64,000 nt of DNA from Octopus vulgaris (Eukaryota). Made by a program: the position numbers. Shown here piece by piece: positions 26,851 to 50,118 of this stretch (position 1 is its first letter; every line of letters begins with the position of its first letter). The DNA lies in the NCBI GenBank assembly GCA_951406725.2, contig OX597828.1:12152001-12216000 (forward strand). The letters run 5' to 3'.

Positions 26851-29800
26851 GATAAAGGGTGAAATTTAATAGTCTTTGCAACAAGTTGCTAGACCACATA
26901 CCGAAAGTTTTAGAAAGTTTTATTTCTAAAACTTTTGGTATGTGGTCTAGCAACTTGTTGCAAAGACCCTCATTGTTATAATTGTATATATATATATATG
27001 AGAGAGAGAGAGAAAGGAGTAAATTATCATGCCGGATACCGTATTATCTTACAAACTGCTATACATTCCGGTTATCCACAGCGGTCCGGTTTTATAGTAC
27101 TCGAGCATTAAAGAGATACTGGTATTAGTAAGCATTACTTGTCGGTAAATGCTCTGAATTCTTACATACATTGTATTACTATCTCTATTTTATTTTTTAT
27201 TTTTTATTAACAGGTACTAATATAAATCGTGCACTTCTAGATGGTCTCGAATTAATGTCAACTATTTCGAATATAACATCAGAAGGTCGGTCTCCAGTAA
27301 TCGTGTTTTTAACTGACGGTGCTGCATCATCTGGTGTAACTAGAAGTACTGATATCCTGCGCAATGTGGCTGAAGCTAACGAGAAAACAATTCCTGTGTT
27401 TTCTCTGTCTTTCGGCGCCGACGCTGATTTCACCTTACTTCAGAAAATATCTCTACAGAACTATGCCGTGGCCCGACGCATTTATGAAGCATCTGATTCT
27501 GCCATCCAACTGAAGAATTTTTACAACGAAATATCTGCTGCGCTAATGACCGATGTAAAATTCAAATACTTTGGTAATGTACGTCGACCACAGATTTAAT
27601 ATCATTCATATTTGGCGTTCAAGCGTTAAAAAGTACTTTAAGATTTCCCACTCTTAAACGAAGAATGCCTGGCTATAATGTCCACGTTTAGAAAAATCTG
27701 TTCAGTTATAATAGAAGTGTTCAAGGCTAATATATGTTGTATGAGAGTTCAGTTTCAATATCTGCATATTCTAGTATTATTATTTTCTATGGATATTCTT
27801 AGAGGTAATCCGTAGATATATTTCGTGTATTATTCCGGGCGTACTATTTACAGTAAAAATAGCCATCTTTTTATTAATTCAGTTGCTTCGTCACATTTTA
27901 AGAATCCTTTTGAATATTTTTCTATTGCTTTATCGTTATTTAATACGTTATTTTTAAATGTTTTCATGAAAAATCAGCAAGTTTTATGCATTTTAATTGG
28001 TCCCTCAGTGCACTAAATTCATCTTGCTATTTCCGAGATTGCTGAATGCTGATATGAGTAAAAGAGACATTTCTCTTGAAAGAGTCGTTATTTAATGACC
28101 AGAATATTTAGAGCTATTTTGATATAATCTTGTCTCCCCAAGTATATTTTGCTGGAGTTGGTCTGGAGCATCCCGGTATATTGTTGAGTATTATTTGAGA
28201 ATATGCGCCACACAACCTACATGACATTTCCGAATTGAATTTTAGAAATACCCGATATTACTATCAATATATATCCCAGAAAATGATCTGTTCCCAAAAC
28301 AACAAATGCAGATGCTTCAATTGTTCTGTTTTCTTCTAGATTTGTTTGTTCACGCCACTGATAATGACTTATTCGTGTAATGTGTATCCAGCTCGAATTT
28401 AGCTTTTGCCTGATCATAATGACTAAGTACACATCGGAGTTAGTTAACAAAATACTGAGCAATATTAATAAAATCTTTTCAAACCAATCCCTAACCTTTA
28501 ATACTTTTCTACTATTCTCTTCGGAGGTTGTGCTTCTATCTGCGACACACTTGTTTGAGGTACGCTGCAATTTTTTTATAATTTTGTCACATAAGCTTAT
28601 AGTGCCTACCACAGAGCAAAATGGTATAGTCTGCACCAGAAATGTATAAATAGAACAGCTAGTCGTTTTGCTATTGTGCTTTCACACAAGCAGTTTTCTC
28701 CTCGCCTATGCCCAAATATTTGTAGAGAGGCGACGTGAACTGCTCCAATATTATATCCGCTCCTTGACTTCCTGGTGAGCTTTTTTTAAATACAGCTTGT
28801 ATTTATTCGATTAAAGAACATTTAAATGCCTTGGCTAAGCTATTTAGCAATATAGACATGACTCACATACTAGGTTATTCATCAACTGAAGACGACGATG
28901 AGCCTCGGTCGTACATTTCGTCTTTAATATCTCAAATTGACTTTCAAAATTAGAAGATGCAAATCACTTGAGTTTTTATATTTATATATAATTTAATTTG
29001 CAGGAGTATTCATTTTCTTACTTACAACAATTGCAGCCACGCATATTATTTCATTTAACCCGGTGACTTTTATGTACGTGTCAGTTTACACTAAATTTCT
29101 GATTGTTAGGTTTACGCATTTGTGCAGTTACTTGCTTGACGTTGAGTTTTTATTCCTGAGAGAGTGAGGGCGCGTGGCTTAGTGGTTAGGGCATTCGGCT
29201 CATGATCGTAAGGTTGTGAGTTCGATTCCCGGCGACGCGTTGTGTCCTTGAGCAAGACACTTTATTTCACGTTGCTCCAGTCCACTCAGCTGGCAAAAAT
29301 GAGTTGTACTTGTATTTCAAAGGGTCAGCCTTGTCACTCTCTGTGTCACGCTGATTATCCCCGAGAACTACGTTAAGGGTACACGTGTCTGTGGAATGCT
29401 CAGCCATTTGCATATTAATTTCACGAGCAAGCTGTTCCGTTGATCGTATCAGCTGGGACCCTCGTCGTCGTAACCGGCGGAGTCTTTTTTAATTCCTGAG
29501 AGATACTTCCGTTGCTCGATAATATTATGAGTTGATTTTATTTTTATAATTATATCCACCATTAGATTATCATGTTTCTAACTTCACATTCAGATACAAA
29601 CGTCTGTTTCTGCTATCCAGATCCCATGGTTGTGTTTCTGCATACTGATAAAACATTACATTTCGATCAGCTTTTGTCTTTATCGTCACCATCTTATTGC
29701 TGGATGTATGGATTGAAACTTGGAGGTTTTATTTCTAAACGAACATTTTATTACTCTTAGTATATAATGTTTCATATTTAGAATCCAATCTAGAATTATG

Positions 29801-47153: not shown

Positions 47154-50118
47154 ATGCTAACAGTAATATTTCGATGTTTTATTCTCTGTTAACAGTAACC
47201 AAGCACGCTCCTAGTGGAGGTATGTACCACAATATGTTCATTCTAAATACGTTTTAAATATTCTTCCTTAAGAACTAGTTTTTCCTTTCCATCCGATTTA
47301 GTCCTTGGCTTTAAATATATTTTAAGAATTTTTCAGATGCTCATCATCATCATTGTTCGACCGTGGTCGAGACAATGGAATTTACCATGCTACGCCAGAC
47401 TTCATGGTCCATCATGGCATTACGGAGGTCCTGTTGCTGGATGCCTGTATCCCTGGAGATTACATCAGGGTAGGAGAGTGTGCGCCCTCTGGCATTGCGA
47501 GTTAAATTACAGCGTTAAACAAAACGTAATGAATCTGTTAGTAAAAGTAAAATTACTTCTATACTGCAATTTAAAGTAAAAAAAAAATTGATCTTTCCGT
47601 AAGAAAATTCATATTCGACAACTCATTGTTATAATCATTTCTTCTATACGCACCAGGCCTGAAATTTACGCGTAGGGGGATAGTTAATCACATCAGTAAA
47701 CAGTTTTTCTCTATAAAATATGGACGTGATGGAATCCCCAACTTATAGCTTCATATTTCTCCATATATTCACATATCCATCTTTCTATGTTAATGCGATT
47801 TAATTTCACAATTTTCTATCTTTGTGTTTTTTCATGTTTCCAGGTTCTTTTGGCGATCCCCATTTCTTTGTGACACTGAAAAACGTGACTTACCCTATAT
47901 GTTACAAAATGCCTACAAAACCAGGAGAACTAATGACGTTAATGTATGATCCAGTATTACGTAAGTTAAATTCTCAGCTTTGTTCATACATAATATTTAG
48001 GAGTCAACGGTCATCCAACAAAATGTCTGTTAATATGTATATATTCTTTTAAAAAATATATATACAACTATATACAAAACATGTATAAGCGTTATATATG
48101 TTCCATTGTTGGAATTATGGTTTGTCTATCACTTTTCTATTCAGTTTAACCCAGTATTTGCTACAAAATGCCTACAAAACCAGGAGAACTAATGACGTTA
48201 ATGTATGATCTGTATCGTAATGATCCGTCGCTTTGTTCATACATAATATTTAGTCAATGGTCGTCCAACAAAATGTCTGTTGATTTATATATTTATTGTA
48301 AAAAATATATTACAACTTTTACATGTATAAGCGTTACTTATGATGTACTTTGACATCATTTTTGTGTTTGTCAGCTTCGCTAAAAACTGAAAGCAGTTTT
48401 TTGTGTTGTTCGTGCTTTGTGGCTATTTGTATTATTTTTCTTTGCTCGAGAAGTAGTAAATTCTGTAGTCCTATGGTTGTTATTTTGTAATAGTTTTCTT
48501 TTTGTATAAGAGATCTACCACATTCCATACATTGTATATATTATCTTTCTATGTCATTATTTTTTCTTATTTTCTGACTATTTTGATTATTTCATATACA
48601 GTCCAATTGAGAATATTGTAGCTGTAACTTATAACTGGGACGGCTAGAGTATTGATACCTATTATCTTGTTTTCTCGCAAGGGGCTCTCTTGTCAGTATT
48701 AATCTGATCGTCTATAGTTTTATTTGTGCGCGATGTGGTAATTTCATATCAAGATAAACTGTGCATGGCCTTGCAGATGGAACCCAGTTAGAATTTTCTT
48801 AAGCTAGAGTAGCCCATCCCAGTCAAAAGGTCCCCAAATAAGGTTTCTTTAAGGAACATGAACAAAACACCCTCGCCTCCAGAGGCGAATTATTCAAACA
48901 CCAAATGACTCCTATCAACATATGCCTATGATGCTTTCCCAATACTTCTGCTCGTAATCAGAGATGCACTTATTGTCAGCCACTAAGGGACATGCTCAAC
49001 TGGTTAAGGTCAAACAACTGACAAGTAATTTGTGGTATTGAGCAGAATATTGGCTGTAGCCCATCTTTATACCAAGACAAAACAATGTACATAATAACAC
49101 TTCGGATCAGTTAATATGAAAAGCCATGAAAGCCAGTGACTGGTACTGGATCAGGTCCCTAAATATGAATATTTATATTTTTTCCTCATGAAACGAAGGT
49201 TTCTCTCCAAAAGTATCTGGAGATATTGGTGAATTTCTATATATTTTTCACTATTACTCTTTTACTCTTTTACTTGTTTCAATCATTTGACTGCGGCCAT
49301 ACTGGAGCACCGCCTTTAGTCGAGCAAATCGACCCCGGGACTTATTCTTTGTAAATCCAGTACTTATTCTATCGGTCTCTTTTGCCGAATCGCTAAGTGA
49401 CGGGGACGTAAACACACATCAGCATCGGTTGTCAAGCAATGCTAGGGGGACAAACACAGACACACAAACACACACACACACATATATATACATATATACG
49501 ACAGGCTTCTTTCAGTTTCCGTTTACCAAATCCACTCACAAGGCTTTGGTCGGCCCGAGGCTATAGCAGAAGACACTTGCCCAAGATGCCACGCAGTGGG
49601 ATTGAACCCAGAACCATGTGGTTGGTTAGCAAGCTACTTACCACACAGCCACTCTTGCGCCTATTGTTAATATTATTATTATTATTGTTGATATAAATAT
49701 TTTATCTTTTTTCTCTCAACAGAAATCAATGTGACGGCGAAAATTATAGAAGGTACAGGAAGTTATAAGCCCGGTCGTCCAAACAGAACATACATCGGTA
49801 AAGTTTATATTAAAACTGCCAATATAGAAATAATGATAGCAACACACCAAATAGTATTCAACGGTAAACGCCTGATTTGGAAACATGAAACAAATATCGC
49901 CTTTGCTGGAGCATCCTGCGAAGTGAATGGAAAAGGGAGGTTTGTGGAAATAACAATTAATCCTGGTTTAACGTTTCTTATCAGACGGGACTTATACGCA
50001 CCTATGGGCCCTAAATATGGTTATTTAGATTTCTTCCTCATGAACGACGATGGATTCTCTCCAAAAGTATCTGGAGTTATCGGTGAGTTGCTTCGTATTC
50101 TTCTTCATGATTATTATT

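What the first reader, a model, noticed from the sequence alone, without database searches (positions are those of the whole stretch)
27214..47960. ITIH exons 7-11 are duplicated as a phase-symmetric block: two tandem genes fused by a gap, or one gene with alternative five-exon cassettes
Seen: exons 7-11 occur twice (27214-38943, 40490-47960), both open with intact splice sites, while exons 1-6 and 12-13 occur once. The block starts and ends in phase 1, so 6-A-12, 6-B-12 and 6-A-B-12 are all in frame if 7B has the same acceptor phase as 7A. A 100-N gap at the junction hides that acceptor. Inference: the simplest reading is two tandem paralogs whose missing halves lie in the gap, which would make any single gene model chimeric. 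The alternative, a multi-exon switchable cassette covering half the vWA domain, the linker and the GDPH site, would be unusual for this family.
[Added by the scan's program, not by the reader: the finding's places include an assembly gap (unread letters, written N; its length is only estimated) at 40390 to 40489. Whether the letters on both sides are continuous or in frame is not known: test that first.]
Basis: partly seen in the sequence, partly recalled or inferred. Interest (0 to 1): 0.78.

Follow-up and report, generated by a model that had tools for sequence, protein, structure and literature searches.

The report
Two octopus ITIH paralogs joined by gap
The apparent doubled five-exon block is most likely the front of one octopus ITIH-like gene and the back of an older sister copy, joined across an assembly gap, so it is an annotation trap and not a new splicing device.

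Summary
Exons 7-11 of a VIT/VWA/ITI_HC_C gene on the + strand occur twice, at 27214-38943 and 40490-47960. The two blocks are collinear at 70-80% nucleotide identity including introns. All visible splice sites are AG/GT, and the block is phase 1 to phase 1 (A = 987 nt). Copy 7B is only the last 102 nt and starts at the first base after the 100-N run.

New evidence favours two genes. The closest public protein, Octopus sinensis ITIH3 X2 (P0001), matches exons 1-11A at 656/665 residues. It matches the window's exons 12-13 at only 149/182, about the same as the B exons (191/222). So exons 12-13, which sit on the same contig as block B, are B-type. A second 12-13 pair exists in this lineage and is absent from the window.

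An O. bimaculoides protein (P0002) shares derived residues with 7B but has VIT/VWA exons only 73% identical to the window's. This suggests the B lineage has its own exons 1-6. A versus B dN/dS is 0.28, so the copies are constrained.

Verdict: ordinary tandem or segmental paralogs interrupted by a gap. Any single gene model here is chimeric. The five-exon cassette reading is unlikely (about 4%).

The parts
4393..4446 (+). Exon 1 (ATG, hydrophobic N-terminus), A-type
   Evidence: tblastn with P0001 gives 17/18 identical; donor GT
13803..14177 (+). Exons 2 (13803-13975) and 3 (14067-14177), VIT domain
   Evidence: Pfam VIT E 2.9e-10 and 5.1e-10; 57/57 and 36/36 identical to P0001
16842..18880 (+). 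Exons 4 (16842-17098) and 5 (18735-18880)
   Evidence: 85/85 and 47/48 identical to P0001; AG/GT read
21665..21950 (+). Exon 6, N-terminal half of the VWA domain (DTSGS metal-site motif), ends in phase 1
   Evidence: Pfam VWA/VWA_2/VWA_3; 94/95 identical to P0001; motif read in the alignment
27214..38943 (+). Block A: exons 7A 27214-27578, 8A 30709-31053, 9A 32992-33127, 10A 37325-37348, 11A 38827-38943 (987 nt coding, phase 1 to 1; VWA C-half, linker, GDPHF site)
   Evidence: Pfam VWA profile positions 76-173; 118/121, 115/115, 44/45, 7/7 and 36/38 identical to P0001; splice sites
38944..40389 (+). The 1446 nt of intron 11A that are present, running to the end of the first contig; no exon 12-like sequence
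   Evidence: tblastn with P0001 finds nothing here. Homology to B stops 44 nt after exon 11. The only other matches are dispersed repeats at 39637-40079.
40390..40489 (.). Assembly gap (100 N, true length unknown); not filled
40490..47960 (+). Block B: exon 7B 40490-40591 (last 102 nt only, acceptor unseen), 8B 41272-41616, 9B 44103-44208 (30-nt in-frame deletion), 10B 47196-47219, 11B 47844-47960
   Evidence: 27/34, 109/115, 22/35 and 33/38 identical to P0001
48156..48253 (+). Extra partial copy of the 3' half of exon 11 plus about 44 nt of intron, inside intron 11B
   Evidence: blastn 38879-38983 matches 48155-48253 at 80%; tblastn 16/18; flanks
49723..50082 (+). Exon 12 (ITI_HC_C domain), physically continuous with block B, B-type
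   Evidence: Pfam ITI_HC_C E 1.7e-11; 103/119 identical to P0001; boundaries
55623..55819 (+). Exon 13 and TAA stop, B-type
   Evidence: 46/63 identical to P0001 but 56/64 identical to P0007; acceptor AG; stop

Best explanation
The window comes from an octopus of the O. sinensis/vulgaris kind. It holds parts of two paralogous ITIH-like genes (VIT, VWA, ITI_HC_C), not one gene with a doubled cassette.

The first contig (up to 40389) carries exons 1-11 of gene A and 1.4 kb of its intron 11. The second contig (from 40490) starts inside exon 7 of gene B and carries 7B (part) to 13B. The 100-N join therefore stands for a stretch of unknown length. That stretch should hold at least exons 12A-13A and the 5' part of 7B, and probably also an intergenic region and exons 1B-6B. 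Judged from the sizes of the visible halves, that is tens of kilobases.

Shown: the duplication, its age, the intact splice sites and phases, the B-type nature of exons 12-13, and purifying selection. Inferred: that B has its own exons 1-6, and that A and B are directly adjacent.

Both copies would encode secreted ITIH-type proteins with a metal-site VWA domain and a GDPHF site.
For: Contiguity: exons 1-6 are continuous with block A, exons 12-13 are continuous with block B, and the only break is the N run.

Identity to P0001 (O. sinensis ITIH3 isoform X2, 855 aa): exons 1-11A 656/665 (98.6%), exons 12-13 149/182 (82%), B exons 7, 8, 9 and 11 191/222 (86%). A exons against 12-13 differ at Fisher p = 6e-16. 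B exons against 12-13 do not differ (p = 0.27). The C-terminal region evolves about 1.65 times faster, judged against Argonauta. Allowing for that, about 4 mismatches are expected and 33 are seen, Poisson p = 3e-19.

No second match to P0001 residues 672-855 exists in the window.

Age: introns are 69-80% identical and dS = 0.285, so these are not haplotigs.

Constraint: dN/dS = 0.275 over 669 aligned coding nt, the only indel is a 30-nt in-frame one, and all 9 visible B splice sites are canonical.

B lineage with its own 5' exons: the 7B tail is 30/34 identical to O. bimaculoides P0002 and 27/34 to 7A. 7B and P0002 share Q, Y, K and P, whereas 7A, P0001 and the Argonauta outgroup share R, S, D at those places. 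P0002's exons 2-6 are only 218/300 identical to the window's exons 2-6, against 88-90% for the 7B tail and 8B.

Only one set of VIT exons is in the window.
Against: No B-type protein with its own N-terminus was found for O. sinensis or a near relative. The searches with exon 7A gave 5 hits among 993 candidates. The searches with exon 12 gave 2 among 154 at longer lengths and 1 among 17 at near lengths. None returned anything more than 81% identical to exon 12. The members of P0001's 5-sequence cluster could not be listed.

Homology between A and B stops 44 nt after exon 11 in both copies. No collinear match links 38988-40389 to intron 11B. That pattern would also fit a duplication boundary just after exon 11.

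A/B divergence is uneven between exons (exon 8 95%, exon 9 63%). This points to gene conversion and weakens clock-like arguments.

P0001 is itself a predicted model and could be chimeric. The species of P0007 is not known.
Confidence: 0.75

Rival explanations
1. There is one promoter and one set of exons 1-6, followed by two alternative 3' modules (7A-13A or 7B-13B). The duplication covered exons 7-13 only, and the gap hides 12A-13A and the start of 7B but no second 5' half.
For: Only one set of exons 1-6 is in the window. No separate B-type full-length protein was found in three searches. An isoform of exons 1-6 plus B would be about 91% identical to P0001 and could sit unseen in its 90% cluster, which could not be listed. 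B is under constraint, so it must be expressed somehow.
Against: P0002 from O. bimaculoides groups with 7B and 8B at 88-90%. Its exons 2-6 are only 73% identical to the window's, which is paralog-level divergence and not the ortholog level expected if exons 1-6 were shared. Splicing from exon 6 over a complete 3' module with its own terminal exon would be unusual (inference).
Confidence: 0.1
2. One reading: a single gene in which exons 7-11 were duplicated internally. The two five-exon blocks are used as mutually exclusive or additive cassettes between shared exons 6 and 12, and the gap is short.
For: The block is phase-symmetric: 987 nt in A, and 957 nt in B if 7B has full length. So 6-A-12, 6-B-12 and 6-A-B-12 are all in frame. 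A/B homology ends 44 nt after exon 11. Both copies are constrained.
Against: P0001 carries A-type exons 7-11, but its exons 12-13 are only 82% identical to the window's, against 98.6% for exons 1-11A. A second 12-13 pair therefore exists. No sequence in 38988-40389 resembles intron 6, as a junction of intron 11 to intron 6 would predict. The contig break lies inside exon 7B, as expected of an assembly break in repeated sequence. The 6-A-B-12 product would carry one and a half VWA domains (inference).
Confidence: 0.04
3. B is a 5'-truncated partial duplicate without exons 1-6 and is not expressed as a protein. Alternatively, the second contig belongs elsewhere in the genome and was placed here by scaffolding.
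For: No B-type protein is on record in the searches made. Exon 9B lost 10 codons and exon 10B shares only 2 of its 7 whole codons with 10A at the protein level. A degenerate extra piece of exon 11 lies in intron 11B.
Against: There is no stop or frameshift in about 1.25 kb of B-type coding sequence, although introns differ by 20-30% and have many indels. All visible splice sites are intact and dN/dS is 0.275.
Confidence: 0.08

Closest known systems
[quoted passage not shown]
   Same: It has the same 13-exon layout as read from tblastn. It is 656/665 identical over exons 1-11A and has the same VIT, VWA and ITI_HC_C domains.
   Different: Its last 184 residues match the window's exons 12-13 at only 149/182 and have no better match in the window. 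The window therefore does not hold the whole orthologue.
Vertebrate ITIH gene clusters (ITIH1-ITIH3-ITIH4 and ITIH2-ITIH5 lie in tandem in human; recalled, not from a call)
   Same: Head-to-tail paralogs of one VIT/VWA/ITI_HC_C gene family, each with a DPHF site.
   Different: Here only one and a half gene-equivalents are visible, and the duplication is cephalopod-specific. P0002 groups with 7B while Argonauta groups with 7A. Binding to bikunin/chondroitin sulphate is untested in molluscs.
Mutually exclusive tandem exon arrays (Dscam1-type; recalled)
   Same: Duplicated, phase-compatible exons in tandem.
   Different: Known arrays duplicate single exons between shared flanking exons in an uninterrupted gene. 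Here five exons are duplicated together, the downstream 'shared' exons are B-type, and an assembly gap lies at the junction.

Membership tests
[quoted passage not shown] | N-terminal VIT domain | tested here: met
   Pfam VIT in exons 2 and 3, E 2.9e-10 and 5.1e-10, above the cut-off
[quoted passage not shown] | VWA domain with metal-site motif | tested here: met
   Pfam VWA profile 1-70 in exon 6 and 76-173 in exon 7A. DTSGS was read in the exon 6 translation. The role of the motif is recalled.
[quoted passage not shown] | ITI_HC_C C-terminal domain | tested here: met
   Pfam PF06668, E 1.7e-11, in exon 12
[quoted passage not shown] | DPHF cleavage/cross-link site and covalent link to a chondroitin sulphate chain | not testable with these tools
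   GDPHF is present in both 11A and 11B. Cleavage and linkage need biochemistry. The meaning of the motif is recalled.
Alternative (mutually exclusive) exon cassette within one gene | Both copies lie between the same upstream and downstream exons in one uninterrupted transcription unit | tested here: inconclusive
   A gap of unknown length lies between 11A and 7B, and the 7B acceptor is unseen
Alternative (mutually exclusive) exon cassette within one gene | The downstream exons are shared, that is, they are the only copy and belong equally to both cassettes | tested here: not met
   A-type protein P0001 has different exons 12-13: 149/182 identical against 656/665 for exons 1-11A, p = 6e-16
Alternative (mutually exclusive) exon cassette within one gene | Transcripts joining exon 6 to either copy | not testable with these tools
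   No RNA data were at hand
Haplotig / false duplication by assembly | Copies nearly identical, including introns | tested here: not met
   69-80% nt identity in the collinear HSPs and dS 0.285
Tandem paralogous genes | Collinear copies in the same orientation, both under purifying selection | tested here: met
   9 collinear plus-strand HSPs; dN/dS 0.275; open frames; canonical splice sites
Tandem paralogous genes | The duplication covers the whole gene | tested here: inconclusive
   Exons 7-11 are seen twice. A second 12-13 pair is inferred from P0001 and a second 1-6 set from P0002. Neither is in the window.

The most novel reading that the evidence does not exclude
One octopus ITIH locus uses a single promoter and VIT/half-VWA front (exons 1-6) with two alternative multi-exon back halves. 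These would be either the five-exon cassettes 7A-11A / 7B-11B, or whole 3' modules 7-13. The switch would swap the second half of the VWA domain, the linker and the GDPHF site in one step.
Probability: 0.13. Interest if true: 0.55.

Novelty: already known. Interest (0 to 1): 0.14.

Why it matters
The main value is as a caution. A gene predictor run on this scaffold can splice 11A in frame to the window's exon 12, or string A and B together. Either gives a chimeric or elongated ITIH model, and one locus would be counted where two paralogs exist. It also shows that octopus ITIH-like genes have duplicated and probably exchange sequence by gene conversion: exon 8 is 95% identical between copies and exon 9 only 63%. 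That is ordinary for this family. If the shared-front reading were true, it would be a rare case of multi-exon module switching inside a folded domain.

Tried and rejected
Haplotig or assembly false duplication was rejected, because the copies are only 69-80% identical.

I looked for exon 12-like sequence between 11A and the gap and found none.

I looked for homology of 38988-40389 to intron 6, which would mark a cassette junction. Only a 62-nt minus-strand match at 71% turned up.

I looked for collinear homology of the same stretch to intron 11B. Beyond the first 44 nt there is only a 62.5% match, and it lies in a dispersed repeat.

A search for a B-type protein on record gave nothing closer than 81% to exon 12. 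Listing the members of P0001's cluster was not possible.

P0006, an O. bimaculoides isoform X2 that joins exon 1 directly to exons 9-13, could not be assigned to A or B.

Rfam and tRNA scans found nothing.

The literature search gave 3 papers. I read passages of PMC10142993 and saw only the search listing of the other two. That paper lists ITIH-derived peptides among its ink-proteome results and says nothing on gene structure.

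Full report
**What the window is.**
The 64-kb window has 35.5% G+C, a CpG observed/expected ratio of 0.88 and a single N run at 40390-40489. 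It is not vertebrate-like, and I did not take it for human. Three searches each used one exon-sized ORF as query. [quoted passage not shown] Hits from O. bimaculoides and Argonauta hians followed. Identity of 656/665 over exons 1-11A places the window in O. sinensis or a very close relative. This placement is an inference.

All searches were made exon by exon. I never built, searched or folded a joined spliced model, and per-exon counts were summed instead.

**The gene.**
Local tblastn with P0001, inspection of the flanks and Pfam give a + strand gene with these exons:
- E1 4393-4446
- E2 13803-13975 and E3 14067-14177 (VIT)
- E4 16842-17098
- E5 18735-18880
- E6 21665-21950 (first half of VWA)
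- 7A 27214-27578 (second half of VWA)
- 8A 30709-31053
- 9A 32992-33127
- 10A 37325-37348 (a 24-nt microexon)
- 11A 38827-38943 (GDPHF)

After the gap come:
- 7B 40490-40591
- 8B 41272-41616
- 9B 44103-44208
- 10B 47196-47219
- 11B 47844-47960
- E12 49723-50082 (ITI_HC_C)
- E13 55623-55816, followed by TAA

Every visible acceptor is AG and every donor GT.

The first Pfam scan covered 150 + strand ORFs between 26.2 and 52.4 kb, and 2 had hits: VWA and ITI_HC_C. The second scan took 99 of the 198 ORFs listed, the longer ones from both strands. Four scored above the curated cut-offs: VIT twice, VWA, and a reverse-transcriptase fragment at 175-945 on the minus strand. Three low-complexity ORFs scored below cut-off. 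No other gene was seen.

**Checking the observation.**
Blocks A and B are collinear. Nine of the 15 plus-strand blastn HSPs chain from 27480/40493 to 38987/48004 at 69-80% identity, introns included. The remaining plus-strand HSPs are an ATGT microsatellite, a dispersed repeat and the extra exon-11 piece.

Block A codes for 987 nt, or 329 codons. Exon 6 leaves one base, exon 11 leaves one base and exon 12 begins with two, so the phase-1 symmetry is real.

Three amendments apply:
- 7B is only the last 102 nt of the exon. It starts at the very first base after the N run, so neither its acceptor nor its first ~263 nt can be judged.
- 9B has a 30-nt in-frame deletion.
- A partial extra copy of exon 11's 3' half lies at 48156-48253.

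**How old and how constrained.**
Over 669 aligned coding bases (7 tail, 8, first 29 codons of 9, 10, 11), pS is 0.237 and pN is 0.074. This gives dS 0.285 and dN/dS 0.275. Intron identity of 69-80% agrees with that dS. The copies are therefore old paralogs and not haplotypes. About 1.25 kb of B-type coding sequence has stayed open with intact splice sites, while the introns accumulated many indels. Both copies look functional.

**The decisive comparison.**
Exons 12-13 are continuous with block B on the second contig, and exons 1-6 are continuous with block A on the first. P0001 is A-type. Its identity is:

| Window exons compared with P0001 | Identical residues |
|---|---|
| 1-11A | 656/665 (98.6%) |
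| 7B, 8B, 9B, 11B | 191/222 (86%) |
| 12-13 | 149/182 (82%) |

The A exons and exons 12-13 differ at Fisher p = 6e-16. The B exons and exons 12-13 do not differ, p = 0.27.

The C-terminal region does evolve faster: about 66% divergence from Argonauta against about 40% for the front. Allowing for that 1.65-fold rate predicts about 4 mismatches, and 33 are seen (Poisson p = 3e-19). No other match to P0001's residues 672-855 exists in the window.

So this lineage has a second, A-type pair of exons 12-13 that the window lacks. The one-gene model with shared exons 12-13 predicts the opposite. In B, intron 11 is 1762 nt. The first contig ends 1446 nt into intron 11A, so it may simply stop short of exon 12A.

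**Does B have its own front half?**
This is inferred, not shown. In the last 34 codons of exon 7, 7B and O. bimaculoides P0002 share Q, Y, K and P. At the same places 7A, P0001 and the Argonauta outgroup share R, S, D. The identities are 30/34 for 7B against P0002 and 27/34 for 7B against 7A. P0002 also shares the 8B-specific residues.

P0002's exons 2-6 are only 218/300 (73%) identical to the window's exons 2-6, while its match to the 7B tail and 8B is 88-90%. Scaled by each exon's divergence from Argonauta, exons 2-7A fall in a 'paralog-level' class with ratios of 0.56-0.80. The 7B tail, 8A and 8B fall in an 'ortholog-level' class with ratios of 0.22-0.34. I computed these ratios by hand from the counts.

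This fits a B lineage that already had its own VIT/VWA exons before the two octopus lineages split. P0007, a 92-aa UniRef fragment labelled Octopus, is 56/64 identical to the window's exon 13, against 46/63 for P0001. This again shows more than one C-terminal type in the genus.

**Evidence that cuts the other way.**
- No B-type protein was on record. Nothing closer than 81% to exon 12 was found among 154 longer candidates and 17 near-length candidates.
- P0001's 5-member cluster could not be opened. An isoform of exons 1-6 plus B would be about 91% identical to P0001 and could hide there.
- A/B homology ends 44 nt after exon 11 in both copies. The 1.4 kb before the gap matches neither intron 11B nor intron 6, apart from repeats. 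This is neutral between whole-gene and partial duplication, though a cassette junction should have shown intron-6-like sequence.
- Divergence between A and B is uneven: exon 8 109/115, exon 9 22/35, exon 11 31/38. This suggests gene conversion and weakens clock arguments.
- P0001 is a computer-predicted model.

**Verdict.**
- Most likely (0.75): two paralogous ITIH-like genes, with the scaffold joining the first eleven exons of A to the last six and a fraction exons of B across a gap of unknown length. Any single gene model here is chimeric.
- Less likely (0.10): a shared front with two alternative 3' modules of exons 7-13.
- Less likely (0.08): a truncated or misplaced B copy.

The gap was not filled or looked up. 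What it holds stays open, and so do adjacency and orientation of the two contigs.

**Comparison with what is known.**
The gene meets the domain definition of the ITIH family: VIT, VWA, ITI_HC_C, and a GDPHF motif in both copies of exon 11. Tandem ITIH paralogs are the rule in vertebrates (recalled, not tested). Nothing here departs from a known kind. The literature search listed 3 papers. Passages of PMC10142993 say nothing on gene structure.

Noticed in passing
window 48156-48253: A partial extra copy of the 3' half of exon 11B plus about 44 nt of the following intron lies 195 nt downstream of exon 11B. It keeps an open frame (ICYKMPTKPGELMTLMYD), has a 3-nt deletion near its end, and is followed by GTAATG in the same phase. 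It could be a dead remnant or a cryptic exon.
   Followed up: partly
window 37325-37348 and 47196-47219: Exon 10 is a 24-nt microexon in both copies. Its splice sites and flanking introns are conserved, but the coding sequence diverged strongly (NRPPPRG against TKHAPSG; 71% nt identity, almost all changes non-synonymous).
   Followed up: partly
window 18260-18581 and 29166-29487: A 322-nt element is 98.8% identical between intron 4 and intron 7A. It lies inside the 2.4-kb stretch (28213-30685) that block A has and block B lacks, so it is a young insertion or copy.
   Followed up: no
window 61388-62643; also 48722-49182, 50107-51263 (minus): A unit of about 629 nt is tandemly doubled at 61388-62643 (93.8% identity). 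Related copies at 82-90% identity, in reverse orientation, lie on both sides of exon 12.
   Followed up: no
window 18988-19400, 31772-32125, 49251-49664 (minus), 51417-51849; and 39637-40079, 42818-43081, 45416-45709 (minus), 36075-36281 (minus), 19491-19816 (minus): Two dispersed repeat families of about 300-430 nt (74-92% identity) populate the introns. A copy of the second family ends about 310 nt before the contig end at the gap.
   Followed up: no
window 175-945 (minus strand): An open frame of 257 aa matches Pfam RVT_1 (E 1.5e-17), a retroelement fragment upstream of the ITIH gene.
   Followed up: no
window 24105-24558, 26416-26848, 7511-7721, 4545-4782, 19701-19875: Long (TA)n tracts of up to 454 nt lie in introns 1, 5 and 6. 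They produce most of the 20,106 self-blast HSPs.
   Followed up: no
protein P0006 against window exons 1 and 9-13: The O. bimaculoides 'isoform X2' model (286 aa) joins the signal-peptide exon directly to exons 9-13 and skips VIT and VWA altogether. It is either a short secreted C-terminal isoform or a prediction artefact.
   Followed up: no
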